Part shown: in pieces, positions 1 to 44,522 of the stretch
Numbering within the stretch: the stretch's first letter is position 1
Layout of the letters: every line of letters begins with the position of its first letter
Assembly: GCA_964353855.1 (NCBI GenBank)
Contig: CAYGWX010000001.1
Location: 139,389 to 203,388 of the forward strand
Length of the DNA: 64,000 bases
Source: an uncultured bacterium
GTDB taxonomy: Bacteria; Edwardsbacteria; CAYGWX01
Direction: 5' to 3'
Program-made: the position numbers and the translations under genes
The notes under the pieces: generated by a model
Seen by the model: the letters and a program-made list of their open reading frames with translations, nothing else
Told to the model about the DNA's origin: nothing
Databases searched by the model: none

Positions 1-65
1 GGAGGCTGATCAACTGGTTCGCCACCGGGACGTTCGAAGTCAAAGGCTACCACCCGCCGGAGTAG
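1..65 (+). CDS. 3' end of an unidentified gene (partial, ...RLINWFATGTFEVKGYHPPE*)
   Basis: Open frame 3 with GC-rich codon usage, ending TAG at 63-65. Confidence 0.45.
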   Translation, partial: RLINWFATGTFEVKGYHPPE

Positions 66-117
66 GGTCGGGCCTTTCAATATCTCAATTTTTTAAGAAA
101 GGGCCTGCTTAAAGGTT

Positions 118-246
118 CAACAAAGCCAACCTATCACCCGCCAAAGACTTACCTTCCCGCTTTTTAGCTTCAATCCGCTTTCTACATCCCGGTTTTAAAC
201 CACAACCCAAGCTGTAACAAGGCATTATCCTAACACCTCCCGAGGT
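118..246 (+). promoter_or_regulatory. Conserved leader of repeated module, copy 1
   Basis: Motif islands CAACAAAG-nn-AACCT-N10-AAAGACTTA, TTTAAA, AACCCAA and AACAC-n-TCCC-n-AGGT align without gaps to 15415-15543 (constant offset 15297). Confidence 0.7.
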
Positions 247-334
247 GTTCCCGCCAAGTTCCCACCAATTTGACGCCAATTTCACGCCAACTTCACGCCA
301 ATTTGACGCCAAGTTCACGCCAACTTGACGCTAA
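247..334. repeat. 11-bp tandem array, 8 units, consensus nTTsACGCCAA
   Basis: gttcccgccaa gttcccaccaa tttgacgccaa tttcacgccaa cttcacgccaa tttgacgccaa gttcacgccaa cttgacgctaa. Confidence 0.9.
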
Positions 335-354
335 TTATTCCAGCACCAAGGTAC

Positions 355-385
355 TTGACAAAGGAGTGGTAAACACGAGTATAAT
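355..385 (+). promoter_or_regulatory. Sigma70-like promoter with 19-bp spacer
   Basis: TTGACA 355-360, TATAAT 380-385; nearly identical to 15707-15737. Confidence 0.7.
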
Positions 386-410
386 AATCAGCGCAGGCTG
401 ATTATTGGGG

Positions 411-480
411 TTAGACGGTTGGACGGTTCGACGGTTGGACAGTAAAGGAGGTTAATCGGTTAGCCGGTTAATCCGTTCAC
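411..480. repeat. Short degenerate 8-mer repeats (TTnGACGG-type)
   Basis: ttagacgg ttggacgg ttcgacgg ttggacag, then ttaatcgg ttagccgg ttaatccg. Confidence 0.6.
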
Positions 481-535
481 CTAACCAACAAAGCACAAAG
501 AGACGAACGCTTAGTAACTGAGGAAGGAGTAAGAG

Positions 536-1183
536 ATGGCAAAGGTAAGGTCGCCCCTGCACAGCATCGGCTTGCGGGGCCGGATGGCGGACGGGTTCGT
601 GTTCACGGAATGGCGGGGGATCAGCTGCATGCGAACCTTCGTGATGCCCAGCCAGCCCAGGACCCAGAGGAGAGAGCAGGTCTGGAAGACCACGCCTGTC
701 GTGACCCGGGCCTGGGCAGGCCTATCGGACCCGGAGAGAGCACAGTGGGACGCGTTCACACTTCTGGTCAAGCCGATAGACCCCACCCTGGGAAGGGAGA
801 GCCACTGGTCCGGGTACAACGCCTATCTCTCCGTGAACCGGGTCCTGGCCGACGCGGGGTTATCCCTGGTCATCCAGCCCCCGGGCATCCCCCAGCCCAA
901 TCCGCCGGAGAGGTTCAGACTCAGAAATCCAAGCCCGGGAGTCGTGCGCATCCGCTGGGAGCCACTGCCAGCAGGGACTTTGATAGACCTCTGGCTCAAC
1001 CAGGGCAAAGCCTCCCGCAAAGCCTACCCCTCCAAGTTCAACCACCTGGTCTACGCCGACGGCACCACCGGCCTCCATGTCCTCTCGGGAATCCCTGCGG
1101 GAACAAGGGTAGCAGTCAAAGGCCGGGTCGTAAGGCCCGACGGCGGAAAGTCGTACTACGCGCAAGCCGAGATCGTTGTCTAA
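536..1183 (+). CDS. Hypothetical basic protein, module protein copy 1 (N-terminus reminiscent of DUF6266-like proteins; beta-rich C-terminus)
   Basis: RBS AAGGAG; highly similar to 15789-16436 and clearly homologous to 43825-44466. Confidence 0.85.
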   Translation: MAKVRSPLHSIGLRGRMADGFVFTEWRGISCMRTFVMPSQPRTQRREQVWKTTPVVTRAWAGLSDPERAQWDAFTLLVKPIDPTLGRESHWSGYNAYLSVNRVLADAGLSLVIQPPGIPQPNPPERFRLRNPSPGVVRIRWEPLPAGTLIDLWLNQGKASRKAYPSKFNHLVYADGTTGLHVLSGIPAGTRVAVKGRVVRPDGGKSYYAQAEIVV

Positions 1184-1260
1184 ACCCCAAAGGGTTGCTG
1201 ATTTCGCGGTGAGAAATGTGAATTCAGCATAGGGAACCGTTAGCTTTTACTTGCCACCCC

Positions 1261-1290
1261 TTGACAGCAGGCTTACCCTTCTGGTATAGT
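1261..1290 (+). promoter_or_regulatory. Sigma70-like promoter of putative ncRNA, copy 1
   Basis: TTGACA-N18-TATAGT, also at 16443-16472. Confidence 0.7.
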
Positions 1291-1296
1291 AAGGCC

Positions 1297-1440
1297 ACAA
1301 CAAGGCAGCCAAGGCTGGAGTCAGGCAAACCCGGTTGAGGAGGAAGCCTTAAAAGAATTAGACGCTGGAAGAGGCCCCGTTTCCGGGGCGGGTGAAAGAC
1401 AGCTAACATCACCCTATACTCAGCGTCCTTTTCTTTTCCC
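1297..1440 (+). ncRNA. Putative structured non-coding RNA, copy 1
   Basis: Stems GACGCTG/CAGCGTC, GCCCCG/CGGGGC, GGGTGA/TCACCC and AAGGC/GCCTT conserved with 16479-16620 while loops differ; pyrimidine tail; no conserved ORF. Confidence 0.6.
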
Positions 1441-1554
1441 CCGGCCCCCTCGAAACCCCGGTGTCCTGCGCCGTGACGGCTTAAACTAAATAAACAACCA
1501 AACCAACGGGGGCGGGGCATCGCGCCGCCCCCCGGAAAAGGAAAGGCCTCAAAA

Positions 1555-2187
1555 ATGCCTTGGTGGAGTTCAATCCCTTGGATTAAGTTACTTCCTCCCT
1601 TCTTAATGGTCGTGACTTCCTTGGTTAAGGAGGTTCTGCCCAAAGAAAGAAAGGTTTTTAAATATATACTCATACCTTTGCTGGTTCTATTCTTCCTTGC
1701 TACCGTGCTATTTATCGTTCAAGATCATCGGACCTCCATTGATTCAAAAAGGAGGGAATCAGAAGCCACCATCCAAACACATGCCGACCTCGATTCATTA
1801 AAGAGGCTATACGGCCCTATCGCAGAGATCGCCAAAGGCAAATATCCTAATTTAACAGACAAAAATGCCATTCTACAGCTTACAGCGAGAATCGAAGCAG
1901 CTGAGAAGGCTGCTAATCCAGCCCCTTTAGCAACTAGGCTTCGAGGGCTCCTTGAAGAAATTGACCCGAAAATAATCCCGGCGCTCAAGACAGGTCACAC
2001 TGGCTTTGAAGGCGGTATCACTGCATCACAGTTCACACGACTCCAGACAATTGCGAACGAAAGTGGGGCGAAGGAGTACATCAGGATCGATCCAGGGAGT
2101 GTGCGCATGGGCATCGGTATGGGCCCGGAGGGCGTGACATACAACGTAGCCTTCAAACTTAACCCCAAGTTATTACAGCAACCATGA
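1555..2187 (+). CDS. Hypothetical membrane-anchored protein (cargo, lower GC)
   Basis: 210-aa ORF, N-terminal hydrophobic helices, AT-rich codons. Confidence 0.65.
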   Translation: MPWWSSIPWIKLLPPFLMVVTSLVKEVLPKERKVFKYILIPLLVLFFLATVLFIVQDHRTSIDSKRRESEATIQTHADLDSLKRLYGPIAEIAKGKYPNLTDKNAILQLTARIEAAEKAANPAPLATRLRGLLEEIDPKIIPALKTGHTGFEGGITASQFTRLQTIANESGAKEYIRIDPGSVRMGIGMGPEGVTYNVAFKLNPKLLQQP

Positions 2188-2267
2188 CAAATGCTAAAAG
2201 AGCTAGCTGCTGGCCTGCGGGGCCACCTGCGGGTGGCCCTGGATAAGCCCAAAGAGGGAGTATCGCC

Positions 2268-3896
2268 ATGACAGAGACATATAAAAACTTGCTCTACTAC
2301 GGGGACAACCTGGATGTGATGCGGCGGCACATCAAGGAAGAGACGGTTGACCTCGTGTATCTGGACCCGCCTTTCAACTCCAATGCGAATTACAACGTCC
2401 TATTCGCGGAAAAAGATGGGAGCAAAGCCGCAAGCCAGATTCAGGCTTTTACGGACTCCTGGACATGGAACCAGGAAGGCGAATCCACATATGCCGAGAT
2501 TATGACTGCTGGGGGGCGCGTAGCCGATTGCCTTCATGCGTTCCGGACCTTCCTGGGCGAATGCGACATGCTGGCCTATCTTGTGATGATGGCCCCGCGC
2601 CTTGTGGAATTGCGGCGGGTCCTTAAGCCAACCGGAAGCATCTACTTGCACTGCGACCCGACGGCAAGCCACTACCTCAAGATGTTGATGGATGCGGTGT
2701 TTGGGGCGGTGAACTTCAGGAATGAGATCACGTGGAAGCGCACGAGCGCCCACAGCGACGTGGGACAAGGTGCCGTCCACTTGGGACGCATCCACGATAT
2801 TATCCTATGGTTCACGCGTTCTGACGCACCAGTTCGCAACCCGGTTCACCTTCCCTACTCGCCAGAATATATCGAAAAGATATTTCGGTACGTAGACGAA
2901 CACGGTCGGCGTTACCAGACCCAGCCGCTCCATGCGAAGCAACCAGGCGGCGACACTCGTTATGAGTGGAAGGGCCAGTATCCGCCGACAGGTCGCTATT
3001 GGGCGTTTTCAAGAGCGAACATGGAGAAACTGGATAGGGAAGGTCGCATTATCTACAGCAAGACCGGGGTACCCCGATACAAAATTTACCTTGATGAATC
3101 CGCGGGGAGACCGCTACAGGACCTCTGGGATGACATCAGCCCCGTCCACAATTCTCCGAAGGAACGACTTGGATATCCCACTCAGAAGCCCGAGGCGCTC
3201 TTAGAGCGCATTCTGGAACTGGGCAGCAACGAAGGCGATCTGGTGCTTGACCCGTTCTGTGGCTGCGGGACCACGATTGCCGCCGCGCAGAAGTTGGGCC
3301 GCTCGTGGATCGGGATAGACATCACGCATCTTGCCATTAACTTGATCAAGACCCGGCTCAAGGATTCCTTTGGCGAGTCCGCCGCCTACCAGGTGATAGG
3401 CGAACCCGTAAGCGTGGAGGATGCCGAACGGCTGGCCGAGTCCGAGCCATTTCAATTCCAATGCTGGGCGCTTGGTCTTGTGGGGGCCCGGCCCGGGGGT
3501 GAGCAGAAGAAGGGTGCGGACCAAGGCATTGATGGACGGATCATCTTCCAGGGGGAAAAGACAGGAACTTTTGAAAGCGTGATCCTGTCCGTGAAGGCCG
3601 GGCATACCGGAGTTGCACATGTCCGCGACCTGAAGGGCGTGCTGGAGCGGGAGAAGGCAGTGATCGGGGTCCTTATCTCGATGCAGGAGCCCACTGCACC
3701 TATGAGAACAGAAGCAGTCACGGCGGGATTCTACGAATCCGAAACCTGGGGCCAGAAATATCCAAAAGTACAGCTTCTCACTGTGGCCGAACTGCTGGCC
3801 GGGAAGAAGGTTGAAATGCCTCCGATCCGCCAAGTGAGCGCCACGTTCAAGAAGGCCCCTAAGGCGACGAAGAAAGGGGAGCAAGGGGTATTATAG
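2268..3896 (+). CDS. Amino-DNA methyltransferase (beta class) fused to C-terminal Mrr-like restriction endonuclease domain
   Basis: Motif IV DPPF, YPTQKPEALLERI, motif I DPFCGCGT; C-terminal DQGIDG...SVK resembles PD-(D/E)xK. Confidence 0.88.
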   Translation: MTETYKNLLYYGDNLDVMRRHIKEETVDLVYLDPPFNSNANYNVLFAEKDGSKAASQIQAFTDSWTWNQEGESTYAEIMTAGGRVADCLHAFRTFLGECDMLAYLVMMAPRLVELRRVLKPTGSIYLHCDPTASHYLKMLMDAVFGAVNFRNEITWKRTSAHSDVGQGAVHLGRIHDIILWFTRSDAPVRNPVHLPYSPEYIEKIFRYVDEHGRRYQTQPLHAKQPGGDTRYEWKGQYPPTGRYWAFSRANMEKLDREGRIIYSKTGVPRYKIYLDESAGRPLQDLWDDISPVHNSPKERLGYPTQKPEALLERILELGSNEGDLVLDPFCGCGTTIAAAQKLGRSWIGIDITHLAINLIKTRLKDSFGESAAYQVIGEPVSVEDAERLAESEPFQFQCWALGLVGARPGGEQKKGADQGIDGRIIFQGEKTGTFESVILSVKAGHTGVAHVRDLKGVLEREKAVIGVLISMQEPTAPMRTEAVTAGFYESETWGQKYPKVQLLTVAELLAGKKVEMPPIRQVSATFKKAPKATKKGEQGVL

Positions 3897-3953
3897 GTGT
3901 GATGATATACCTGTAGAGGCGGAGCCGCCCACGGGAAAACGAAGGAGCTAAAG

Positions 3954-4253
3954 ATGAAAGAAAAACTTCGAGGGATTGAAGAGCGCGAAGCAAAATGGGG
4001 CCAGAAGATGATAGAGGTTAAAGTGCGTTTCTGGACCAACGGCCTTGCTGTGGTAAAAGGCAATATAAAACCGATGTATGCAAAGGGTTCGGGAGTTGTA
4101 CGAATTAAGAAAAACCGAGCTCACGGCATAACGCCGGGGCGGCCCATCCATTTCAGGTCCTTAATGGACTTACCCGCAAAGATAGAGAAGCTCCTCATCC
4201 AAGAGGGTATTTTGATCCGTCGTAGCAGGCAGATGCACAAATATATCTCCTAA
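3954..4253 (+). CDS. Small basic hypothetical protein (cargo)
   Basis: 99-aa ORF with AAGGAG RBS. Confidence 0.6.
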   Translation: MKEKLRGIEEREAKWGQKMIEVKVRFWTNGLAVVKGNIKPMYAKGSGVVRIKKNRAHGITPGRPIHFRSLMDLPAKIEKLLIQEGILIRRSRQMHKYIS

Positions 4254-4305
4254 CAAAACACAAAGGACTTAAGGGTGAAACCCTAATGGACAAGAGGAGG
4301 TTACC

Positions 4306-5526
4306 GTGAAATTATTCGCGTTCTCAAAGCAACTCACGTTCTGTGTCATTTGCGGAGCAAGCATTTCCATATTACCCAGCCTTGTCGCCGCTGGCTGGGT
4401 CCCTCTAACCTCGGGCACAACCGAAGCCCTTTTCTCCGTCTATTTCCCCGTGGATGCTCTAACCGGGTATGCTGCGGGGGAGCGGGGTATCATCCTGAAA
4501 ACCACGAATGGGGGAGCAAGTTGGGTCTCCCAGAACTCGCCGACAAACGAAAATATTTTCTCCGTCTCTTTTCCCTCTGATGCCTCCACCGGGTTCGCCG
4601 TGGGTGGCTCTGGCAGAATTGAGAGGACCACGAACGGAGGCACGGACTGGGTCTCGCAAACTTCGGGTACATCCGAAATTCTTCAGTCTGTCCATTTCCC
4701 CCTGAATGTCTTAACCGGGTATGCCGTGGGGAATAGCGGTACCATCTTGAAGACCACGAATGCGGGAGCGGCATGGGTTACCCTGTCCTCGGGCACATCC
4801 ACTGCCATTTTAGCTGTCCATTTCCCTACAGATGTCTTAACCGGCTATGCCGCGGGGGGAGTCGGCACCATCCTGAAGACAACGAATGCGGGAGCGGCCT
4901 GGGTCACCCTGACCTCGGGCATACCTGTTGCGCTGAATTCTATCCATTTTCCCGTGGATGCTCTCACTGGGTATGTCGTTGGCTCTTCTGGCACTATCAT
5001 GAAGACCATGGATGGAGGAGGGGTCTGGCTCGGCCAAACATCGGGCACAACCAATTATCTTCGCTCAGTCCATTTCCCCATGAATACCTCAACCGGGTAT
5101 GCCGTTGGGGATAGCGGCACCATCCTGAAGACCACGGATGGGGGAGCGAACTGGTATCCCCAGACATCGGGCACAACCAATCATCTTTGGTCGGTCCATT
5201 TCCCCGTGGATATCTCAACTGGGTATGCTGCGGGGTGGTATGGAACCATCCTGAAGACCACAGACGGGGGGATTGGGGTGGAGGAAAACACAGAGGTTAG
5301 AGGTCAGAGGTTAGAGGTCAGAGTAACGGCAAAACCGAACCCTTTCACCACCTTCGCTCAGGTCCCCGGGCACAAGGGGGAGAGGTTCACGATGTACGAC
5401 ATCGCGGGTAGGAAGGTCGGGACGTATAAGGGAGACCGGGTCGGAGAGGGGCTGGCGCCGGGGGTGTACTTCCTCCGTACCTCAAATAACAATGATAAGC
5501 CTCTGCGGATAGTGAAGGTTAAGTAG
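4306..5526 (+). CDS. Secreted YCF48/BNR-type beta-propeller with short C-terminal sorting-like domain
   Basis: Seven ~43-aa repeats (W..SGT...L.SVHFP....TGYAVG..GTILKTTxGG); GVEE linker; PNPF...YD..GRKV...GVYF. Confidence 0.85.
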   Translation: MKLFAFSKQLTFCVICGASISILPSLVAAGWVPLTSGTTEALFSVYFPVDALTGYAAGERGIILKTTNGGASWVSQNSPTNENIFSVSFPSDASTGFAVGGSGRIERTTNGGTDWVSQTSGTSEILQSVHFPLNVLTGYAVGNSGTILKTTNAGAAWVTLSSGTSTAILAVHFPTDVLTGYAAGGVGTILKTTNAGAAWVTLTSGIPVALNSIHFPVDALTGYVVGSSGTIMKTMDGGGVWLGQTSGTTNYLRSVHFPMNTSTGYAVGDSGTILKTTDGGANWYPQTSGTTNHLWSVHFPVDISTGYAAGWYGTILKTTDGGIGVEENTEVRGQRLEVRVTAKPNPFTTFAQVPGHKGERFTMYDIAGRKVGTYKGDRVGEGLAPGVYFLRTSNNNDKPLRIVKVK

Positions 5527-5604
5527 GAATTAGTGACTGGCGACTAGTTACTTGGAACGGCAAAAGAGCAGGGAATAGGGATCAGGGGTTAGGGACTAGA
5601 AAAC

Positions 5605-5632
5605 CTGGATTCCGGGTCAAGCCCGGAATGAC
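5605..5632. repeat. REP-like palindrome (GTCATTCC...GGAATCCAG family, reverse orientation)
   Basis: ctggattccgggtcaagcccggaatgac; same family as 37657-37877. Confidence 0.7.
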
Positions 5633-5639
5633 GTCATAA

Positions 5640-5667
5640 AAACGGGCCACCTTTCGGTGGCCCGTTT
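5640..5667 (+). terminator. Intrinsic (bidirectional-type) terminator
   Basis: aaacgggccac-ctttcg-gtggcccgttt hairpin. Confidence 0.75.
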
Positions 5668-5717
5668 GATTCTGCAATCCAAAATCCTCAATCCGCGCTC
5701 CGCATTAAAAAGCCCTC

Positions 5718-5808: not shown

Positions 5809-8640
5809 ATGAGAAAGGGTTTAGTGGTTCTGGCCTTGCTTTTGGCCGGCACGGCTTGGGGGGCGGAGGATCTTTCGCTTCCCGGCATTCACCAGGTGAC
5901 CGGGACGGCCCCGGACGGGGCGCTTCAAGTGAAGACGGTCCTGGTCCCGACCCCCGGGGCGGTCCCCAGGGTGCTGTCCTCGCAGCCGGCGCGGCTTGCG
6001 GCACCCGCGGCCCGCTCGGTGCTCGCGCCCCTGGACGTGATGGCTGCAGTCCCCTCGCCCTGGCCGCTCTCCCGCGAGACGCGGGGCGGGGCCGGGATTC
6101 TGGCCGCGATCCTCTGGGTGGACCGCGCCCACCAGTACGCCATCTCCAACAACATGGCCATCTCCGGGACCGGGCAGACCGTGCTCGCCGGCTGGTACCT
6201 GAACAACGAGCGAACCTCCTGCTACCGCATGTCCGGGGCCGGGACCCCGCTGTGGGTCTACAAGATGCCACGCAACGGGCTGTGGAGCAACAACGTCTGG
6301 GTCGGGGCCTCCGGGACCGGAGGGGTGCTCTCCGCGGTGACCTCCTCGGACGGGCCGACCTACAAGTGGGACGGCCCCTCCCCGATGCCCAGCTGGATGT
6401 ACAACAACGGCGACCCCGGCGCGGTCCTGGCTGTGTCCCGGGACGGCTCAAGGATCGCCGTGGCCTCCACCGGACTGAAGCTCTATGTTCTGAACGCCGC
6501 GACCGGGGACACGGTGCTCACCCGGCCCTACAATTCCACCCGCGGGCTCTACGGGGTGGACCTCTCCTCGGATGGCAGCGTGGTCACGATCTCGACCTAC
6601 GACTCCGTGGAGGTCTGGCGGAGCGGCGTGCGCGCCCCCAACGTCCCGAACTACGGCCAGACCCCGGCCAAGATCTCCGGGGACGGCAGCACCATCGTGA
6701 CCGGCGACTTCTCGGCCAGCGTGCGGACCTACCGCTGGAACGGGAGCTCCTACGCCTCCCTGTGGACCAGCAACACCGGCCATCCCTGGGTCACGGCCGT
6801 GGACATCTCCGCGGACGGGAACTGGGTCGTGGCCGGAACTTACCAGTACAGCCCCTCGAACATGGGCAAGGTGTTGTTCTACAACATCGGCTCCTCGACC
6901 CCGCGCTGGGAGTACAACAACTACCTGGACTACGTGGCCAGCGCAGCCGTGAGCGACACCGGAGCCTTCGCCATTGCCGGAAGCTGGGGGGACATCAACG
7001 GCTCGAGCGGGGACGTCATCTCGATCTTCGGCCGGGCGGATTCCATTCCCATTCTCGCTGTGCCTTCCAGCAGCGAGCCGGGCTCATCCTTCGCCGTGGA
7101 CATCGCCGGGGACGGGAGCTATGCCACAGCCGGGGGCAAGGCTGTGCATGCCCGGCAGATGGGGAACGGAGGCTACGTCTACGGCTTCCAGATCCGCACC
7201 TCCTCCACCCACGACGTGGCCTCGGCCAGCATTGACAGCCCCCCGGAGCTCCTCCAGGTCGGCCAGAGCTTCACTCCCCAGGCGACCTATTCCAACCCCG
7301 GAACCTCCACCGAAAGCTTCCCGGTGGCCCTGGAGATCTTCGACTCCCTGGGCACGCGGATCTACAACGCCTCGGGCAACGTCACGAGTCTGGCTCCCGG
7401 GGCAACCCAGCAGGTTTCCTTCTCGCCCAGCTGGACCGTACCCTCCCAGGGCTGGTTCCGGGTGCGGACCATCGCCCAGCTCTCCACGGACCAGTTCCGG
7501 GGAAACGACACCCTCGCCGCTGTCTCCCGGGCCTGGCACGACGTCGGGGTGCAGGCCATCTCGGCCCCCTTCGCGGAGATCACGATCAACTACGGCATGA
7601 ACCCGATCGGCAAGGTGGTGAACCTGGGGACCTACACCGAGGACTTCTCGGTCTACTGCTCCATCCGGGATTCCTTGAATTCTCTGGTCTACGCGGACAC
7701 GGTCCAGGTCTCCGGGCTGGCCCCTTACGCGACCACGAACGCGCCCTTCGCCCGGTCCTGGGCTCCGAGCCGGACCGGGACCTACACCGTGCGGGTCTAC
7801 ACCGCCCTGTCCGGGGACTACCGCCCCCAGAACGACGCCCTCCAATCCTCCTCGGTCTGCACCTACGAGATCATCTACGACGACGGGGGCTATGAATCCT
7901 TCTACTGGGTGGGCCGGCAGGACAACGACAAGTTCTACGTGCGCTACACGCCCACGGTCGCTCCGCCTTTGGACTTCACCCGCGGGCGGATCATGGTCAA
8001 CATGGCCAACACGCCCTTCGACTACGTGATGCTCTGCCCGGACGACGGGTCGGGCAAGCCGGACACGGCGAACCCCCTGCAGGTGGTGAACGACGTCCGC
8101 GCGCCCTCGGCCCCGGGCTGGATGACCTTCGACCTGAGCATCCACCGCACGACCTCCGCGGATGTCTGGATGGTGGCCCACTGGCCCCCCGGGTCCCCGG
8201 CCATGGGGATCGGCGCGGACATGGCCCAGCCCAGGGACAACCGCTCCTACTTCTCCTCCAACCAGGACACTTTCTATAGGTGGACTGCGCACGACTGGAT
8301 GATGCGGCTCCTGCAGTCCACGGCGGTCGGAGTGGAGGAACTGACTCCTTCCGGGATTCCGCTTCGCTTCGACCTGGCCCAGAACACCCCCAATCCCTGG
8401 AGGGCCGGGACGAAGATATCCTACGCCCTTCCTCACGAAGCGCAGGTATCGCTGCGGGTATACAATCCTACGGGGCAGTTAGTGCGTACCCTGGTGAACG
8501 GCAGGGAATCAGCCGGTTTTAAGCAGGCTGCCTGGGACGGCCGGGACGACTTCGGACGGCGGGTTCCCTCCGGCGTTTACTTCTACCGGCTCCAGGCCGG
8601 TTCCTTCCTGGAAGCCCGGAAGATGGTGTTGGTCAGATAG
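5809..8640 (+). CDS. Secreted WD40-like beta-propeller / CARDB-like Ig protein with FlgD-Ig/T9SS-like C-terminal domain
   Basis: Signal peptide MRKGLVVLALLLAGTAWG after AAGGAG; propeller repeats; HDV..NDT Ig repeats; PNP...WDGRD...SGVYFYRL. Confidence 0.85.
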   Translation: MRKGLVVLALLLAGTAWGAEDLSLPGIHQVTGTAPDGALQVKTVLVPTPGAVPRVLSSQPARLAAPAARSVLAPLDVMAAVPSPWPLSRETRGGAGILAAILWVDRAHQYAISNNMAISGTGQTVLAGWYLNNERTSCYRMSGAGTPLWVYKMPRNGLWSNNVWVGASGTGGVLSAVTSSDGPTYKWDGPSPMPSWMYNNGDPGAVLAVSRDGSRIAVASTGLKLYVLNAATGDTVLTRPYNSTRGLYGVDLSSDGSVVTISTYDSVEVWRSGVRAPNVPNYGQTPAKISGDGSTIVTGDFSASVRTYRWNGSSYASLWTSNTGHPWVTAVDISADGNWVVAGTYQYSPSNMGKVLFYNIGSSTPRWEYNNYLDYVASAAVSDTGAFAIAGSWGDINGSSGDVISIFGRADSIPILAVPSSSEPGSSFAVDIAGDGSYATAGGKAVHARQMGNGGYVYGFQIRTSSTHDVASASIDSPPELLQVGQSFTPQATYSNPGTSTESFPVALEIFDSLGTRIYNASGNVTSLAPGATQQVSFSPSWTVPSQGWFRVRTIAQLSTDQFRGNDTLAAVSRAWHDVGVQAISAPFAEITINYGMNPIGKVVNLGTYTEDFSVYCSIRDSLNSLVYADTVQVSGLAPYATTNAPFARSWAPSRTGTYTVRVYTALSGDYRPQNDALQSSSVCTYEIIYDDGGYESFYWVGRQDNDKFYVRYTPTVAPPLDFTRGRIMVNMANTPFDYVMLCPDDGSGKPDTANPLQVVNDVRAPSAPGWMTFDLSIHRTTSADVWMVAHWPPGSPAMGIGADMAQPRDNRSYFSSNQDTFYRWTAHDWMMRLLQSTAVGVEELTPSGIPLRFDLAQNTPNPWRAGTKISYALPHEAQVSLRVYNPTGQLVRTLVNGRESAGFKQAAWDGRDDFGRRVPSGVYFYRLQAGSFLEARKMVLVR

Positions 8641-8722
8641 CTTCCCGTCAACTTTTAGAGAGAGGAGGCCCCCGCTGGATGGCGAGGGCCTCCTCTAAAC
8701 CCAGGAACCCGCCTCCCTTTTT

Positions 8723-9091
8723 ATGGAGATCGTAAACCGCAACCGCGTCCAGGCTATCGTCACCAAGGACACCTCGGAGATCCGGGAGATCCTCGCCCCC
8801 CGCAACTCCGCAATCCAGCGCCAGAGTCTGGCCGAGGCCATTCTTCACACCGGCCAGGCCACTCAGGAGCATTACCATGCGACCTCTGAGGAGATCTACT
8901 ATGTTCTCCGGGGGACCGGCCGGATGCGCATCGAAGGGGAGACGAGGGACGTGGAGACCGGGGATGGCATCGCCATCCCTCCGGGCAAGGGCCACAAGCT
9001 CTGGAACACGGGGAGCGGAGACCTGGTCTTCCTCTGCCTCTGCGTCCCGCCCTACGAGCACGACGACACCGTGCTCACCGAAGGCTCGTGA
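8723..9091 (+). CDS. Cupin domain protein
   Basis: HYH...EEIYYVLRG...IPPGKGH.L.N cupin motifs. Confidence 0.85.
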   Translation: MEIVNRNRVQAIVTKDTSEIREILAPRNSAIQRQSLAEAILHTGQATQEHYHATSEEIYYVLRGTGRMRIEGETRDVETGDGIAIPPGKGHKLWNTGSGDLVFLCLCVPPYEHDDTVLTEGS

Positions 9092-9227
9092 TTTCTTAGG
9101 GGAGAACTTATCGGGGATATTAACCCGAGACCCGTCTCCCTGAGATGCGAAAAGGCCTCCCCGTCTCTTGACAGTGGGGGGGCATTGATGTTAAAATATC
9201 AGTTTCCCGACTGGAAGGAGATAAGGA

Positions 9228-10682: not shown

Positions 10683-10683
10683 C

Positions 10684-11043
10684 TTGCCCAACTGGGGCGG
10701 GGCTTTCGAAGAAACCCCCTGGTCGGTTTCTCCCGAGAGACAGAAGGCGCTCATCGAGAAGCTGGCGACCAAGATCGTGGAGATGCGCCTCACCGCTCCG
10801 GCCATCTTCCTTCTGGAATCGTCCAAGCCGCTCTCCTTCCTCGGCAGCCAGGCCCTGGTCTTCCTCCAGCCGGTGGTTCAGGCCGTGTTCCCGTTCAAGG
10901 AATACCAGGAGATCGCGGTCATGCTCGAGGAGCGGGAGAACGTGGAAAGACTGATCGTCGAGATCGAGAGACAGGACGCCGGGGAGAAGGCACCGGGAAA
11001 GAAGGAAACGAATCCACCATCCAGCGAAGGGAAAGCGTCATGA
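10684..11043 (+). CDS. Conserved hypothetical protein
   Basis: Coupled to gcvPB stop; host-like codon usage; PAIFLLESSKPL motif. Confidence 0.75.
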   Translation: MPNWGGAFEETPWSVSPERQKALIEKLATKIVEMRLTAPAIFLLESSKPLSFLGSQALVFLQPVVQAVFPFKEYQEIAVMLEERENVERLIVEIERQDAGEKAPGKKETNPPSSEGKAS

Positions 11044-11354
11044 CCAAGGCTACAGCGAAAGGGTTCTTGCGGGACCACTTCAAAAGGAGAGGGTACCTCA
11101 AGATCAAGAAGCCCTCGCGCACCTCTCACGGAAGCTATGAGCTGCGCTTCTCCACCTCCCTCCCCAAGGAGAAGGCCAAAGTCCTGGAAGCGATGAAGGC
11201 CCTGGGCTTCACGCCCGGCCGGGCCTTCGCCAAGCACTCCCAGACCATCGTGCCCTATTACGGGGCGGAGCAGGTGGAGGCCTTCAAGAAGATGGTGGGC
11301 GTGCGCAAGAAAGCGGCGGCCCCTAAGCGCAAGCGCTTCGGGCGCAGGCGTTAA
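11040..11354 (+). CDS. Small basic hypothetical protein
   Basis: ATGA overlap with upstream gene; K/R-rich. Confidence 0.7.
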   Translation: MTKATAKGFLRDHFKRRGYLKIKKPSRTSHGSYELRFSTSLPKEKAKVLEAMKALGFTPGRAFAKHSQTIVPYYGAEQVEAFKKMVGVRKKAAAPKRKRFGRRR

Positions 11355-15399: not shown

Positions 15400-15414
15400 A
15401 TTGGAATAAAAGGT

Positions 15415-15543
15415 CAACAAAGTTAACCTCCATTTTTTAAAAGACTTAGAGGTAGACTTTTAAAACCCAGCCCTCCTCAAAGCCACCCTCTTTAAAGCGT
15501 AACCCAAAGCAAACCAACATGCTGTACGAACACATCCCAAGGT
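15415..15543 (+). promoter_or_regulatory. Conserved leader of repeated module, copy 2
   Basis: Gap-free colinear with 118-246. Confidence 0.7.
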
Positions 15544-15653
15544 GGTCTCACGGTGTTCTGACGGTCTTCCGACGGTGTTCTGGCGGTATTCTGGCGGTGT
15601 TCCGGCGGTATTCTCGCGGTATTCAGGCGGTATTCCCGAGGTCTTCCCTCGGT
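15544..15653. repeat. 11-bp tandem array, 10 units, consensus nTTCnnnCGGT
   Basis: ggtctcacggt gttctgacggt cttccgacggt gttctggcggt attctggcggt gttccggcggt attctcgcggt attcaggcggt attcccgaggt cttccctcggt. Confidence 0.9.
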
Positions 15654-15706: not shown

Positions 15707-15737
15707 TTGACAAAGGAATGGTAAACACGATTATAAT
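15707..15737 (+). promoter_or_regulatory. Sigma70-like promoter with 19-bp spacer, copy 2
   Basis: TTGACA-aaggaatggtaaacacgat-TATAAT. Confidence 0.7.
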
Positions 15738-15788: not shown

Positions 15789-16436
15789 ATGGCAAAGGTA
15801 AGAGCGCCGTTACACAGCATGGACCTGCGGGGAAGGATGGCCGACGGGTTCGTGTTCTCGGACTGGAAGGGCATCCCCTGGATGAGGACCTTCATCATGC
15901 CCAGCCAGCCCAGGACCGCAAGGAGGGAAGCGATGTGGGCCACCTTCCCCAAGGTCAGTCGGGAATGGGCCAAGCTCACGGATTCGGACCGGACCAGGTG
16001 GGACGAGTTCGCCGTCCTGATCAAGCCCATGAACCACACCCTGGGACGAAAAGGCAACTGGTCGGGTTTCGACGCCTACGTGTCCATGAACACCGTCCTG
16101 GGAGACGCGGGACTGGCCCTCGTCACCCTGCCCCCGGCACTGCCCCTGCCCAACCCGCTGGAGAGGTTCAGACTCAGAAACCCAGCCCCGGGAGTCGTCA
16201 GAATAAGGTGGGAGCTGTTACCAGCCGGGACCCTCGTAGACCTCTGGCTCAACCAAACCAAAGCCTCCCGCAAAGCCTACCCCTCCAAGTTCAACCACCT
16301 GGTCTATGCCGACGGCACCACCGGCCTCCACGTCCTCACCGGAATCCCAGCCGGAATGAGGGTGGCCGTGAAAGGAAGGGTCGTAAGGCCGGATGGAGGA
16401 AAGTCGTATTACGTGCAGGCGGAGATCATAGTCTAA
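15789..16436 (+). CDS. Hypothetical basic protein, module protein copy 2
   Basis: 215 aa, colinear paralogue of 536-1183. Confidence 0.85.
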   Translation: MAKVRAPLHSMDLRGRMADGFVFSDWKGIPWMRTFIMPSQPRTARREAMWATFPKVSREWAKLTDSDRTRWDEFAVLIKPMNHTLGRKGNWSGFDAYVSMNTVLGDAGLALVTLPPALPLPNPLERFRLRNPAPGVVRIRWELLPAGTLVDLWLNQTKASRKAYPSKFNHLVYADGTTGLHVLTGIPAGMRVAVKGRVVRPDGGKSYYVQAEIIV

Positions 16437-16442: not shown

Positions 16443-16472
16443 TTGACAGGAAGCCCGCGCTTCTGATATAGT
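16443..16472 (+). promoter_or_regulatory. Sigma70-like promoter of putative ncRNA, copy 2
   Basis: TTGACA-N18-TATAGT. Confidence 0.7.
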
Positions 16473-16478
16473 AAGGCC

Positions 16479-16620
16479 ACAACAAGGCAGCCAAGCAGGG
16501 AGTCAGACAAACCTGGTTGAGGAGGAAGCCTTCAATGAATCAGACGCTGGAAGAAGCCCCGGAAACGGGGCGGGTGAAGAAGAGAAGCCATCACCCAACA
16601 CCCAGCGTCCTTTCCTTTGC
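16479..16620 (+). ncRNA. Putative structured non-coding RNA, copy 2
   Basis: Same stems as 1297-1440; loops GAAA vs TTTC and agaagagaagcca vs aagacagctaaca. Confidence 0.6.
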
Positions 16621-16749
16621 CCTGGTACTGCGGTTAGTCGGTTGGACAGTTGGGCGGTTAAACGGTAACGGCAAAGACTAACCAAGACAACAAGCAACCA
16701 AACAAAAGAGGCGGGGCTTCGCCCCGCCCCCCACGTAGGAGGGAAAACA

Positions 16750-17373
16750 ATGGCACGGTCAAATATTACGATTGAGGGTTTGAAAAACATAAGAGACCAA
16801 GTCGTTTTTGACCTGACAAATGCAGCACACATTGACAATGTGTTTTGGCAGATCCAAGCCATTTTTGAAAATAACCCCGAAATAAATACAGGCGGTATTT
16901 TTCAAGAATGGTTAGTGGATACTTACGTTGATTCAATTACTGTTCGACTTCGCCGCCTTGCAGATAAAGGAAAGAAGAAGATATCTTTATGGCGTCTTCT
17001 TGAAGATTGGAAACGAGACATCGAAAACATTAGGCCTAAGTCAGCAACTAAAGCTGAAATAACAGCTAAACAACAAGAATTAACTAATGCTTTAAATCGT
17101 GTTGAAAGCTATGCTAACTCTAACATAGCCCACCGCGCCCAGAAACCACAGGTTACTGAGCTAACTTATCTTGAGGTCCGCAAAGCTTTGATTTCTACTT
17201 TCAAGATATTTAATTGGTGTTCTTATTTGTTAACTAAATCCGTGTGGGCCACTCCTGTCCCATTGCTTGAGGAAAGTTGGCTTGCTATTTTCAAAGTACC
17301 TTGGCTTAAAGATTCGGCCCCTCCACCTTATAAACACCTCGATAAATTACTCAAGGAGGCTAATGATGGGTAA
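16750..17373 (+). CDS. AT-rich hypothetical protein, possibly AbiU2/HEPN-like (cargo)
   Basis: All-helical; LRRLAD...ISLWRLL and N..IAH resemble AbiU2-type HEPN proteins; much lower GC than flanks. Confidence 0.6.
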   Translation: MARSNITIEGLKNIRDQVVFDLTNAAHIDNVFWQIQAIFENNPEINTGGIFQEWLVDTYVDSITVRLRRLADKGKKKISLWRLLEDWKRDIENIRPKSATKAEITAKQQELTNALNRVESYANSNIAHRAQKPQVTELTYLEVRKALISTFKIFNWCSYLLTKSVWATPVPLLEESWLAIFKVPWLKDSAPPPYKHLDKLLKEANDG

Positions 17374-17470: not shown

Positions 17471-18874
17471 ATGAAAAGAATAACAACGATCCTCTGGATT
17501 GTTACTCTTTTCTTCGCTTCCTTCACCCATGCCCAGCAGAAGTGGACCAGGATCTACGGAGGGACAGGCGACGATAGAGGCAACTCTGTCCAGCAGACCT
17601 CAGATGGCGGCTACATCATTGCTGGATATACTACTTCCTACGGGGCAGGGCACGATGATGTCTACCTCGTCAAAACTAACGCTTTAGGGGATACCCTCTG
17701 GACCAGAACCTATGGAGGGTCAGGTTGGGACGAGGGCAACTCCGTCCAGCAGACCTCGGATGGGGGCTATATCGTCGCGGGTTATACTACGTCAGGTGAT
17801 GCTGATGTCTACCTTATAAAAACAAATACCACAGGGGATACCCTCTGGACAAGAACCTATGGAGGGAACTTCGACGATCAAGGATACTTTGTCCAGCAGA
17901 CCACGGATGGGGGCTATATCATCACAGGATCCACCTACTCCTATGGGATAGGCAACTACCTTGTCTACCTTATCAAGACCAATGCCTCCGGGGATACCCT
18001 CTGGACCAGGACCTACGGAGGAACGCGCGGCGATTGGGGCTTCTCCGTACAGCAGACCATAGATGGAGGCTACGTCATCGCAGGAAGGACAGACTCCTTC
18101 GGCGCAGGCAGCGAGGATGTCTACCTCATCAAGACTAATACCTCAGGAGCTACCCTCTGGACCAAGACCTACGGGGGGACAAACGAAGATGAGGGCTGGT
18201 CCGTACAACAAACTTCTGACACGGGCTACATCGTTGCGGGATGGACCCGTTCGTTCGGAATCAGTTATCAGGTCTACCTGATCAAGACCAACGCCGGGGG
18301 TGATACCCTCTGGACACGAACCTACGTAGGGTTGAGCGGCGCTGAGGGCTACTCCGTACAGCAGACCTCGGAAGGGGGCTACATCGTCGCAGGATTCACA
18401 GGCGCCTTCCCTTATGATGTCTACCTCATAAAGACGAATGCTTTAGGGGATACGCTCTGGACCAAGACTTACGGAGGGACGAACAGCGATGAGGGCCGCT
18501 CCGTCAAGCAGACCTTGGATGGGGGCTACATCATCACTGGTTATACCGATTCTTACGGGAACGGCAACCCAGATGTCTACCTCATCAAGACGGATGCGAA
18601 CGGGAATATCGGAGTAGAAGAGAACGCAGAGGTTAGAGGTCAGAGGGTAGAGGGAAGAATAACGGCGAAACCAAATCCCTTTTCATCCTTCGCCACTCTT
18701 CCCGGGCATGAGGCCGAGCGGTTCAGCCTCTACGACGTCTCCGGACGGAAGGTCGGGACCTTTCGGGGCGACCGGGTCGGGGAGGGGCTGGCGCCGGGGG
18801 TGTACTTCGTGTGTAAGGGCACGGCATGCCGTGCCCCTACCACCGCGCCCCTGCGCATCGTGAAAGTGAGGTAA
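17471..18874 (+). CDS. Secreted beta-propeller (WTRTYGG...QQTSDGGYI repeats) with short C-terminal sorting-like domain
   Basis: Signal peptide; seven ~50-aa repeats; C-terminal domain closely similar to that of 4306-5526. Confidence 0.88.
   Translation: MKRITTILWIVTLFFASFTHAQQKWTRIYGGTGDDRGNSVQQTSDGGYIIAGYTTSYGAGHDDVYLVKTNALGDTLWTRTYGGSGWDEGNSVQQTSDGGYIVAGYTTSGDADVYLIKTNTTGDTLWTRTYGGNFDDQGYFVQQTTDGGYIITGSTYSYGIGNYLVYLIKTNASGDTLWTRTYGGTRGDWGFSVQQTIDGGYVIAGRTDSFGAGSEDVYLIKTNTSGATLWTKTYGGTNEDEGWSVQQTSDTGYIVAGWTRSFGISYQVYLIKTNAGGDTLWTRTYVGLSGAEGYSVQQTSEGGYIVAGFTGAFPYDVYLIKTNALGDTLWTKTYGGTNSDEGRSVKQTLDGGYIITGYTDSYGNGNPDVYLIKTDANGNIGVEENAEVRGQRVEGRITAKPNPFSSFATLPGHEAERFSLYDVSGRKVGTFRGDRVGEGLAPGVYFVCKGTACRAPTTAPLRIVKVR
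18813..18840. repeat. REP-like palindrome inserted in frame within CDS
   Basis: gtaagggcacggcatgccgtgcccctac (GTAG-type REP architecture). Confidence 0.7.
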
Positions 18875-43824: not shown

Positions 43825-44466
43825 ATGTCAAAGCTAAAAAGTCCGTTTTTCGCCCGCGAGGCGCGCGGGAGGTTTGGTAAGGATTTGGTGTATTCCTCCT
43901 GGCGGGGGATACCCTATGTGAAGGTGTTCTATCCGGCTCGTCAGAAGGATTCCCCGCGTCAGCGCGAGGTGCAGGCGTCCTTTTGTAAGTTGAACCGGGA
44001 GTGGGCGGCCCTCACCGAGGCTCAGAGGGAGGCTTGGAGGGTTTATGCCGGAAGGCAGAGGGTGCCCAATTCCGCGCATTGTCTGTTCCTCTCCTTTGCG
44101 GTTCTGGCCCAGGATGCCGGGCTTTCTCTGCCGGTCCTGCCGCCCGGGGGCAAAGCTCCCCGCGCTCCGTATCTGGCCGTAGCTTCCGGTGAGGAACCCT
44201 GTTCCGTGGTCGTCTCCTGGTCTTTTACCAAGTCCCAGAAGATACCCAACTCAGCCCTTCTGGACCTCTGGTCCTGCATGACCCTGCCCTCCCGCCAGGC
44301 CTATCTGCATCATTTCACGCATCTGACCTACGTTCCGGCCGATGCCGGAAAAGCGGCGATAAATAACCTTCCGCTAAAAAGAAGGCCCCACTTCCGGGCC
44401 CGTTTGATCCTTCCCGACTCCCGCTCCTCTCCCTTTTCCAAGACTATCGGTGCTCCACAGTCGTGA
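43825..44466 (+). CDS. Hypothetical basic protein, diverged third homologue of 536-1183 / 15789-16436
   Basis: Shared K.KSP....RGR....V...WRGI, REWAALT...R..W, DAGLSL, DLW...SR.AY...F.HL.Y. Confidence 0.8.
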   Translation: MSKLKSPFFAREARGRFGKDLVYSSWRGIPYVKVFYPARQKDSPRQREVQASFCKLNREWAALTEAQREAWRVYAGRQRVPNSAHCLFLSFAVLAQDAGLSLPVLPPGGKAPRAPYLAVASGEEPCSVVVSWSFTKSQKIPNSALLDLWSCMTLPSRQAYLHHFTHLTYVPADAGKAAINNLPLKRRPHFRARLILPDSRSSPFSKTIGAPQS

Positions 44467-44467
44467 C

Positions 44468-44522
44468 GGGCTCTGAAGGGGCTCCAAATGGGCTCTAAAA
44501 GGGCTCTAAATGGGCTCTGGGA
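44468..44522. repeat. 11-bp tandem array, 5 units, GGGCTCynnnn
   Basis: gggctctgaag gggctccaaat gggctctaaaa gggctctaaat gggctctggga, starting 1 bp after the stop codon. Confidence 0.85.

What the first reader, a model, noticed from the sequence alone, without database searches (positions are those of the whole stretch)
111..5670. Repeated multi-part module: leader + 11-bp array + 215-aa basic protein + structured ncRNA + variable cargo + secreted propeller (copy 1; copy 2 at ~15408-18970)
Seen in sequence: two loci 15 kb apart share the same ordered architecture. It runs: gap-free leader, 11-bp tandem array, TTGACA-N19-TATAAT promoter, paralogous 215-aa protein, second promoter, conserved RNA-like element, GC hairpin, unrelated cargo genes, then a beta-propeller ending in the same short C-terminal domain. 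Cargo differs completely (membrane protein, MTase-REase fusion and small ORF versus an AbiU2/HEPN-like gene), as do the propeller types. No integrase or transposase is present. Inference: an undescribed gene-capture or variable-locus platform, or a non-autonomous mobile element, in which the basic protein acts on the array and/or the RNA. The N-terminus (MAKV..PL.S..LRG......VF..WRG....R....P..PRT) recalls DUF6266-like and some viral DNA-binding proteins, from memory only.
Basis: partly seen in the sequence, partly recalled or inferred. Interest (0 to 1): 0.88.

Follow-up and report, generated by a model that had tools for sequence, protein, structure and literature searches.

The report
Mosaic islands around a multicopy basic protein
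The two look-alike loci are real, but they are mosaics of separately reused parts (a 26-copy gene for a basic protein of unknown function, 11-base repeat arrays found all over this genome, a new structured RNA leader, foreign defence genes), not one machine.

Summary
Both loci carry leader, 11-bp array, TTGACA-N19-TATAAT promoter, 215-aa ORF (75% identical), second promoter, conserved ~150-nt element, GC hairpin, unrelated cargo and a propeller with a shared C-terminal sorting domain.

They are not one dedicated system.
- The 215-aa gene is one of 28 matches (24 full-length) in this 2.8-Mb genome. It has a disordered basic arm, an N-domain with no fold match and a C-terminal FN3 domain; pI is 10-11.
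- In metagenome relatives, 41 of 44 loci keep an 11-bp array upstream, but only 2 of 54 keep the RNA downstream.
- 11-bp arrays are genome-wide: 131 arrays, 117 intergenic, mostly inside dispersed repeats. Only 14 adjoin a family gene.
- The RNA is a separate promoter-plus-leader cassette (4 copies here) in front of varied accessory genes.
- Flanks are reshuffled among strains, with breakpoints in the 5' UTR or at the start codon.

Best reading: low-GC variable islands built from recombining non-coding modules around a multicopy gene under purifying selection (dN/dS 0.22).

That the protein acts on the array or the RNA is unsupported. The protein's function and the reason for the 11-bp period remain open.

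The parts
111..246 (+). copy 1 'leader': conserved non-coding stretch upstream of the array, ending in a small hairpin that overlaps the first repeat unit
   Evidence: 56% identical to copy 2 without gaps. 90% identical to the leader of metagenome locus L094. Hairpin AACACCTC..GAGGTGTT, with a changed but still paired form in C11.
247..331 (+). copy 1 11-bp tandem array (unit GTTCACGCCAA, 7.7 copies)
   Evidence: TRF. One of 131 period-11 arrays in the genome.
355..385 (+). promoter A, TTGACA-N19-TATAAT
   Evidence: Sequence. This 31-mer (6 or fewer mismatches) occurs 6 times in the genome. 5 stand in front of family genes; the sixth, with 6 mismatches, does not.
409..440 (+). GGTTGGAC x4 repeat block in the long 5' UTR: a reused UTR module
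   Evidence: TRF. The strict pattern scan finds 9 sites in the genome, most upstream of genes. By eye the block also follows the RNA in copy 2, C47 and L094; these diverged copies fall outside the strict scan.
536..1183 (+). 215-aa basic protein: disordered arm 1-18, hairpin plus three helices 21-106, Pro-rich linker, FN3 128-214
1261..1290 (+). promoter B (TTGACA-18-TATAGT with TG)
   Evidence: 11 of 12 matches. Conserved in all 6 copies of the RNA cassette.
1290..1443 (+). structured RNA-like leader: 8-bp closing stem, GC hairpin with a variable tetraloop, 6-bp hairpin with a variable 13-nt loop, then a U-rich tail
   Evidence: Covariance-model match E 5e-45. Fold and pair table. No Rfam family.
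1508..1533 (+). GC-rich hairpin just upstream of the first cargo gene, with no T-run after it
   Evidence: Sequence. No terminator-like site.
1555..2187 (+). cargo: 210-aa ORF, hydrophobic N-terminus, low GC, no family
2268..3896 (+). cargo: N6/N4 DNA methyltransferase fused to an Mrr-type nuclease domain
   Evidence: PF01555 1.3e-46; PF22722 and PF04471.
3954..4253 (+). cargo: 99-aa ORF, no family
4306..5526 (+). BNR/Ycf48-type beta-propeller with a short C-terminal sorting domain
   Evidence: PF14870 4.7e-24. C-terminal domain alignment.
15408..15540 (+). copy 2 leader
   Evidence: Alignment.
15541..15647 (+). copy 2 11-bp array (unit CGGTATTCTGG)
   Evidence: TRF.
15707..15737 (+). copy 2 promoter A
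15789..16436 (+). copy 2 215-aa paralogue
16443..16625 (+). copy 2 promoter B plus RNA-like leader
16710..16732 (+). copy 2 GC hairpin
16750..17373 (+). cargo: HEPN_AbiU2-like gene, GC 0.39
   Evidence: PF18734 2.7e-9. GC.
17471..18874 (+). DUF5122-type beta-propeller with the same short C-terminal sorting domain
43825..44518 (+). third, distant paralogue (213 aa, 30% identical) with an 11-bp array (GGGCTCTAAAT x4.6) starting 2 nt after its stop codon

Best explanation
Each locus is a low-GC variable island. It is assembled by recombination from small parts that this lineage reuses independently.

Part A is an array-bearing upstream region plus a strong promoter. It drives a monocistronic gene for an abundant, very basic two-domain protein (an N-domain with no PDB fold match, then FN3). 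That gene belongs to a family of 24 full-length and 4 partial copies in this genome.

Part B is a separate promoter with a ~150-nt structured leader or small RNA. It sits in front of whatever accessory gene follows: restriction-modification, Abi, peptidase or a secreted propeller.

Part C is foreign cargo.

Part D is one of about 197 genes for proteins with a C-terminal sorting domain.

Shown:
- The parts occur separately.
- The gene is under purifying selection.
- Flanks are exchanged among strains, with junctions in the 5' UTR or at the start codon.
- 11-bp arrays are a genome-wide, lineage-specific class of intergenic repeat. Their inner units are homogenised and their copy number drifts.

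Inferred:
- Ectopic homologous recombination between the dispersed gene copies, and with incoming DNA, turns over what lies beside them. This gives the appearance of a cargo platform.
- The arrays act, if at all, as helically phased cis-elements or structural DNA, not as sequence-specific targets of this protein.
- The RNA is a cis-regulatory leader for accessory genes.

The protein's own role is not established. My best guess is a phage-derived structural or nucleic-acid-associated protein.
For: Family:
- 28 matches in the own genome, of which 24 are ORFs of 190 aa or more.
- Each stands alone, with gaps of roughly 100-450 nt on both sides.
- 0 of 18 same-phylum genomes and 7 of 400 other genomes hold the family.
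- 1802 library clusters match at E<1e-10.
- dN/dS is 0.22 and dS 0.75 between the two copies.

Array with gene:
- 41 of 44 metagenome loci with at least 330 nt of upstream sequence have an 11-bp array of 4 or more units.
- Copy number runs from 4.7 to 10.8. Two loci with 95% identical flanks have 10.8 and 8.8 units.

RNA is separate:
- It follows the gene in 2 of 54 loci.
- There are 4 copies in the genome, two without the gene.
- All 22 pairs but two of the three 3' stems are identical in 6 of 6 copies (one changed pair keeps pairing, one is lost in one copy), while the loops differ.
- An internal small ORF loses its start in one copy and has an early stop in another.

Arrays are genome-wide:
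- 131 of 382 tandem arrays have period 11, and 117 of these are intergenic.
- 14 of 131 adjoin a family gene.
- Their flanks form dispersed repeat families.
- The same array class precedes secreted propeller genes.
- 0 period-11 arrays in 240 kb of a same-phylum genome and 0 in 395 kb of a genome with 6 family matches, against 11 in 220 kb here.

Recombination:
- L067 and L071 share the upstream flank to -51 at 91%, but the gene at only 78%, and nothing downstream.
- L071 and L095 are 93% identical from +1 onward with unrelated upstream sequence.
- The same pattern holds for C12 against L062/L058 and against L071/L095/L096, and for C33 against L093 and L066.
- Three orphan 5' gene fragments lie upstream of full copies.

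Islands and cargo:
- GC is 0.39-0.59 over 1-5700 and 15200-19000, against 0.61-0.71 between the two islands (6000-15200) and after the second.
- Among 107 downstream proteins there are 121 Pfam families and several defence hits.
- Downstream of other own-genome copies: methylases and ORF6N.
Against: - No experiment or transcript data exist; no RNA run was listed. Promoters, the RNA and expression are therefore predictions.
- Arrays are about 5 times enriched next to family genes: 14 adjacencies seen against about 3 expected from 26 of 2321 genes. Some functional link is not excluded.
- Array type is clustered on the protein tree: 13 changes against a shuffled mean of 24.1. Shared descent explains this, but so would co-adaptation.
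- 5 of 8 close paralogues in this genome are followed on the same strand by DNA-modification, defence or ORF6N (phage-type) genes. That is more orderly than random rearrangement predicts.
- My gene calls are crude (own ORF caller).
- The stems of the RNA never covary, so structure is inferred only from the contrast between invariant stems and variable loops, in just 6 copies.
- The viral affinity of the family rests only on Atlas rows. Neither tblastn against phage records nor three IMG/VR scans found a relative.
Confidence: 0.55

Rival explanations
1. One reading: a single gene-capture or variable-locus platform, in which the basic protein binds the 11-bp array and/or the RNA and so controls or mobilises the cargo.
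For: - The array sits beside the gene in 41 of 44 close relatives.
- Arrays are enriched beside family genes genome-wide.
- All 24 paralogues have pI 9.9-11.4, in both domains for 23 of 24.
- There are many paralogues and several array unit families. The same unit types occur beside a paralogue and elsewhere.
Against: - The RNA is linked in only 2 of 54 loci.
- 117 of 131 arrays are not beside a family gene.
- Inner units differ between loci while the edge units are kept. This fits slippage better than conserved binding sites.
- Array and gene are uncoupled by recombination and by at least 7 extra switches on the tree.
- G320 has 6 N-domain matches but no 11-bp array in the 395 kb sampled.
- The fold is FN3 plus an N-domain with no match to any solved structure, DNA-binding folds included.
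Confidence: 0.1
2. A recombinase-free or trans-mobilised cassette. The gene plus downstream cargo is a phage-derived, non-autonomous mobile unit. It integrates into the 5' end of resident copies, leaving the array and promoter as a fixed expression site.
For: - Junctions recur between the promoter and the start codon.
- Three 5' gene remnants lie directly upstream of full copies.
- Islands are low in GC.
- Cargo is defence or ORF6N type.
- The nearest Atlas clusters are labelled viral.
- The family is sporadic: 7 of 400 genomes.
Against: - No defined right end, no terminal repeats and no recombinase were found in the modules.
- The genome shows one tyrosine recombinase hit and one Y1-transposase-like hit in all.
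- The same junction pattern is expected from ordinary crossovers in the best-conserved stretch (ribosome-binding site plus first codons).
- In several loci the neighbour downstream is convergent and looks like core genome.
Confidence: 0.15
3. Contingency-locus reading: the arrays are slippage-prone tracts upstream of promoter A. Their unit number tunes or switches expression of a variable, possibly surface-exposed, FN3 protein family and of secreted proteins.
For: - Unit number varies in whole steps among related loci (5.4, 6.4, 7.4, 8.4 for one unit type). It differs (10.8 against 8.8) between loci with 95% identical flanks.
- The 11-bp period keeps the helical phase.
- Arrays are enriched beside genes with a sorting domain: 49 of 243 neighbours against 197 of 2321 genome-wide.
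- The same array class lies upstream of secreted propellers.
Against: - Arrays show no preference for 5' sides: 18 convergent and 18 divergent contexts, and 121 facing a 5' end against 122 facing a 3' end.
- Several start 2-15 nt after a stop codon.
- The protein has no signal peptide (sequence).
- No within-sample variation was measured.
Confidence: 0.15
4. One old segmental duplication decaying neutrally.
For: The same order of parts in both loci; leader only 56% and array only 44% identical.
Against: - dN/dS is 0.22.
- All 58 metagenome matches analysed cover the full length (213-215 of 215 residues; 56 are the full 645 nt), out of 72 loci fetched.
- The RNA is 83% and promoter A 29 of 31 identical, while synonymous sites differ at 47%.
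- There are 28 copies, not 2.
Confidence: 0.03

Closest known systems
Pfam DUF6266 (PF19781), an uncharacterised family
   Same: Similar length (~200-230 aa) and a similar N-terminal motif. 2 of 42 distant relatives match it weakly. It appears on 11-22% of members of two Atlas clusters.
   Different: The window protein and its paralogues do not match the model. No paper in the library mentions DUF6266, so it adds no functional information.
Phage proteins that carry an FN3/Ig-like domain after a small anchoring domain (decoration and tail proteins; the named examples T5 pb10 and T4 Hoc are recalled, not tested)
   Same: C-terminal FN3 by fold (TM to target about 0.7). The best viral fold hits are FN3 parts of tail proteins. 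Longer relatives add lectin-like or propeller-like C-termini.
   Different: No sequence relative in 50,697 phage records or in three IMG/VR scans. No other phage genes were seen beside the copies whose neighbours were scanned. 24 full-length copies, each with its own promoter, in one genome is unlike a virion gene.
Defence islands and variable hotspots flanked by conserved genes (general concept, recalled)
   Same: Low GC, R-M and Abi cargo, different content at homologous positions among strains.
   Different: The conserved flank is itself a dispersed multicopy gene with an array-bearing promoter region. No integrase was found, and the junctions lie in its 5' UTR.
Operators or centromeres made of 11-bp direct repeats (R1 parC/ParR, PhoP direct-repeat units, pMV158 bind locus: recalled; for the CarH operator I saw only a search listing)
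   Same: Tandem 11-bp direct repeats beside a promoter, sometimes next to a hairpin.
   Different: 131 arrays with many unit types, in any intergenic context. No cognate RHH or winged-helix fold in the neighbouring protein. Inner units are not conserved.
REP/BIME- or MITE-like dispersed intergenic repeats (RAYT link recalled)
   Same: Families of intergenic elements a few hundred bases long, with perfect hairpins and conserved flanks. A single Y1-transposase-like ORF in the genome.
   Different: Each element carries an internal 11-bp tandem array. Mobility and any link to the Y1-like gene are untested.

Membership tests
DUF6266 (PF19781) | Match to the Pfam model at or above its cut-off | tested here: not met
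   0 families for both window proteins at E<=0.01. 2 of 42 distant relatives match, best E 4.3e-4.
Fibronectin type III domain | Seven-stranded beta-sandwich of FN3 topology | tested here: met
   AF2 model with pLDDT 82; residues 128-214 align to solved FN3 domains, TM to target 0.62-0.78 for single-domain targets, E down to 2e-5. No Pfam fn3 sequence match.
Integron-type gene-capture platform | Tyrosine-recombinase gene next to an attachment site and promoter | tested here: not met
   No recombinase family in any module ORF. One Phage_integrase match in the whole genome, on contig C7.
Integron-type gene-capture platform | Cassettes bounded by attC-like recombination sites | not tested
   No shared inverted-repeat site between cargo genes was seen by eye; no dedicated attC search was run.
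Type III toxin-antitoxin (ToxIN-like; features recalled) | Promoter upstream of a transcribed array of ~35-nt repeats, then terminator, then endoribonuclease toxin | tested here: not met
   Unit is 11 bp (a 33-bp super-period is weak). The strong promoter lies between array and gene. No terminator-like site. The fold is FN3, not a ToxN-like nuclease.
CRISPR array | Repeats separated by unique spacers; cas genes | tested here: not met
   Units are head-to-tail without spacers. No cas family among the module ORFs.
Any Rfam family (for the RNA-like element) | Covariance-model match at the gathering score | tested here: not met
   0 matches in the 64-kb window. In E-value mode on 1180-1560 only one chance-level row, E 3.9.
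Structured non-coding RNA (generic) | Base pairs supported by compensatory changes | tested here: inconclusive
   In 6 copies the three 3' stems never covary: 20 of their 22 pairs are invariant, one shows G-U for G-C and one is lost in one copy. The loops vary strongly. The 5' helices are partly broken. The covariance model found no further copies in the genome.
Type IX secretion C-terminal sorting domain (the two propellers) | C-terminal ~70-80-aa beta-sandwich matching Por_Secre_tail, CHU_C or FlgD_ig | tested here: inconclusive
   Neither propeller matches these Pfam models. Both align with a short C-terminal variant shared by many genome proteins. Those proteins cluster by BLAST with longer-tailed ones. 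The neighbouring 967-aa protein matches FlgD_ig and CHU_C. The local HMM (197 of 2321 proteins) was built partly from the two propellers themselves.
Iteron or operator array with a cognate binding protein | Neighbouring protein has a DNA-binding fold and binds the repeats | not testable with these tools
   No DNA-binding fold was found. Binding needs a bench assay.

The most novel reading that the evidence does not exclude
This lineage has evolved a genome-wide system of helically phased 11-bp arrays (131 in 2.8 Mb). The arrays are read by an expanded family of about 26 basic proteins with an N-domain of no known fold plus FN3. Each subfamily has its own unit type, marked by the array beside its own gene. 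That would be a new class of array-binding chromatin or regulatory proteins, controlling secreted-protein and accessory-gene islands.
Probability: 0.08. Interest if true: 0.85.

Novelty: new variant of a known kind. Interest (0 to 1): 0.55.

Why it matters
If the reading is right, this uncultured sediment bacterium builds its variable islands from a small kit of reusable promoters, leaders, repeat arrays and one multicopy gene, with almost no classical recombinases. That is a useful case of how defence and secretome genes turn over by plain recombination.

Three pieces are new leads in their own right:
- A widespread uncharacterised protein family: 1802 clusters at E<1e-10, with an N-domain that has no PDB fold match.
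- A candidate RNA leader that is absent from Rfam.
- A striking excess of intergenic 11-bp tandem arrays. My two library searches found nothing describing it.

Tried and rejected
- Family libraries. NCBIfam and PHROGs gave nothing for the protein. PHROGs on 42 relatives gave only FN3-type hits.
- Phage links. tblastn of the window protein and of P0079 against phage records found no match. IMG/VR scans with three single proteins found none.
- PDB. The profile search found FN3 only. The N-domain folded alone has no PDB match, best E 2.1.
- Context of distant homologues. In G366 the match lies between a glycosyltransferase and a RecN-like gene. In G339 the neighbours have no family. Neither is informative.
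- RNA elsewhere. blastn in 60 other genomes gave only chance-size hits of 27 nt or less.
- Trimer prediction of the protein: no verdict, score 0.00. Not evidence either way.
- Sequencing runs: no RNA holder listed, and all holders share at most 0.12 of the words.
- Sorting-domain proteins are not clearly enriched within 5 kb of family genes: 25 of 227 neighbours fall in one BLAST cluster against 8.5% genome-wide. The idea of a dedicated secretion partner was dropped.
- Promoter A as a general cassette: rejected. It occurs only before family genes.
- A small protein encoded inside the RNA: rejected.
- Literature. DUF6266 gave 0 papers. Two searches for 11-bp tandem repeats gave one listing each, neither on this subject; I saw only the listing and the start of the abstract. 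No paper was read and no supplement bears on any claim.
- Names such as parC/ParR, PhoP repeat units, pMV158, pb10/Hoc, ToxIN and RAYT are recalled, not from any call.

Full report
**1. Observation**

- TRF reports 11-bp arrays at 247-331 (7.7 units) and 15541-15647.
- Both arrays are followed by TTGACA-19 nt-TATAAT, at 355-385 and 15707-15737.
- Next come ORFs of 215 aa that are 75% identical without gaps.
- After each ORF there is a second promoter. The one at 1261-1290 matches 11 of 12 consensus positions.
- Then follow a ~150-nt conserved element and a GC hairpin.
- Segment identities between the copies are: leader 56%, array 44%, CDS 77%, promoter B 80%, RNA 83%.
- The 5' UTRs are not homologous.

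**2. The protein**

No Pfam, NCBIfam or PHROG family matches it.

An AlphaFold model built on 22 paralogues has pLDDT 82. It shows:
- a disordered arm (residues 1-18);
- a beta-hairpin and three helices (21-106);
- a proline-rich linker;
- an FN3 sandwich (128-214).

Solved FN3 domains match the C-terminal part. The N-domain folded alone matches nothing in the PDB, best E 2.1.

All 24 full-length paralogues have pI 9.9-11.4.

A profile search finds 9987 library proteins at E<=1e-3 and 1802 at E<=1e-10. Most are 210-230 aa. Some are longer, with lectin-like or propeller-like ends. DUF6266 is matched weakly by 2 of 42 relatives.

Atlas neighbours are unnamed clusters, several of them labelled viral. 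This is a lead only. Phage records and three IMG/VR scans gave no relative.

**3. A large family**

The own genome (2.8 Mb, 120 contigs, 87.6% complete) holds 28 matches. Of these, 24 are full-length ORFs and 4 are pieces, 3 of them at contig ends. Identity to the window protein runs from 23% to 93%. Each copy is a stand-alone gene.

None of 18 other genomes of the phylum has the family. Seven of 400 wider genomes have the N-domain.

Between the two window copies dN/dS is 0.22 and synonymous sites differ at 47%. The gene is therefore functional. The RNA (17% diverged) and promoter A (2 of 31 bases) are either constrained or were exchanged recently.

**4. What travels with the gene**

I fetched 72 metagenome loci that encode close relatives and analysed the 58 with a full-length match.
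- 41 of 44 loci with at least 330 nt of upstream sequence carry an 11-bp array of 4 or more units.
- Only 2 of 54 loci with at least 300 nt of downstream sequence carry the RNA.

Array units differ between loci (TTCACGCCAAG, CTAATTTAACA, TTCCCGCCGTG and others). The first unit and the last units are conserved, and a small hairpin overlaps the first unit.

On a protein tree the unit type needs 13 changes. The minimum is 6 and the shuffled mean is 24.1. The type is therefore inherited with the gene but has switched repeatedly.

**5. The RNA**

It has 4 copies in the genome and 2 in the metagenome loci.
- In C74 it lies directly before a secreted BNR propeller gene.
- In C47 it follows an array without any 215-aa gene.
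- Genes after it include the 210-aa ORF with the MTase-REase, AbiU2, a weak DUF4145 hit, a trypsin-like peptidase and a protein of unknown family.

Its 3' half folds as a three-way junction. The three stems are almost unchanged in all 6 copies: 20 of 22 pairs are identical. The loops vary. No pair covaries. An internal ORF is not conserved. Rfam has no match.

I read it as an independent promoter-plus-leader cassette or small RNA.

**6. The arrays**

TRF on the whole genome gives 382 arrays, of which 131 have period 11. Of these, 117 are intergenic, and they sit in every gene context.

Their flanks fall into dispersed repeat families. Examples are a perfect hairpin plus an ACCAAGCCAGA array plus a conserved tail, and a GGTATTCACGC x3 element.

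Fourteen arrays adjoin a family gene. In the distant subfamilies the array follows the stop codon.

Neighbours with a sorting domain are enriched: 49 of 243 against 197 of 2321 genome-wide.

A same-phylum genome has no period-11 array in 240 kb. A genome with 6 family matches has none in 395 kb. Contig C1 here has 11 in 220 kb.

The arrays are therefore a trait of this lineage, not of the protein family.

**7. Recombination and islands**

Both modules lie in low-GC stretches.

Among related loci the upstream flank with its array and promoter can stay, while the gene and everything downstream change, and the reverse also occurs. The junctions fall between about -51 and +1. Three orphan 5' fragments of the gene lie just upstream of complete copies.

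Downstream genes are very diverse and include restriction, Mko, Hhe, Gabija-like and DRT-like hits. In this genome they include methylases, ORF6N, AbiU2 and an MTase-REase.

The genome shows one tyrosine recombinase hit, one Y1-transposase-like hit and no RVT_1 hit.

**8. Verdict**

The architecture is real and non-neutral, but it is a mosaic of independently reused modules, not a single machine. The proposal that the protein acts on the array or the RNA is unsupported. It stays open only as a low-probability reading.

Still unexplained are the protein's function, the reason for the 11-bp period and the role of the RNA.

Noticed in passing
whole genome G000; in the window also 44468-44518 and 61288-61350: 131 of 382 tandem arrays have an 11-bp period, and 117 of these are intergenic. 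Most sit inside dispersed repeat families with hairpins and conserved flanks. None was found in 240 kb and 395 kb sampled from two other genomes.
   Followed up: partly
G000 C2:80369-80473, C6:19926-20000, C7:19770-20033: Orphan 5' fragments (about 25-71 codons) of the family gene lie on the same strand just upstream of complete paralogues, as if new copies had been joined into old ones.
   Followed up: partly
G000 C22:12897-13148: The only Y1-transposase-like (PF01797, 30 bits) ORF of the genome lies about 2.4 kb upstream of paralogue C22:15561. It is a possible RAYT-like mobiliser of the hairpin repeats; this was not tested.
   Followed up: no
window 409-440; 16625-16665; G000 C47 after the RNA; 9 strict-pattern sites genome-wide: A GGTTnGAC x3-4 block recurs in 5' UTRs of unrelated genes. 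Most paralogues also have 7- or 8-nt repeats (for example GTGAAAG x4-5) directly upstream of the ribosome-binding site.
   Followed up: partly
G000 downstream of C11:35050 and upstream of a DUF4160/DUF2442-like pair (named by eye) on C74: A second conserved promoter-plus-short-leader cassette (GGTTGACAA..TTTGTCGTATAATAAC..) is followed in C11 by the same kind of GC hairpin and a methylase gene.
   Followed up: no
window 5291-5323 and 18627-18658: 7-nt repeats (CAGAGGT) lie inside the coding sequence at the start of the shared C-terminal sorting domain of both propellers (peptide RGQRLEVR / RGQRVEGR).
   Followed up: no
window 33728-33935 and 38188-38312: A 21-bp x8-10 array and an 8-bp x10 array (CTCCCCTG) overlap short or 5' parts of called ORFs. 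Nature unknown.
   Followed up: no
whole genome: About 197 of 2321 called proteins (8.5%) carry a C-terminal sorting domain by a local HMM. That is a very large secretome for a 2.8-Mb genome.
   Followed up: partly
window 1440-1455 against 1535-1552: The U/C-rich tail after the RNA (CCTTTTCTTTTCC) is nearly complementary to the purine-rich ribosome-binding region of the first cargo gene (GGAAAAGGAAAGG). This could sequester the site. Seen by eye only.
   Followed up: no
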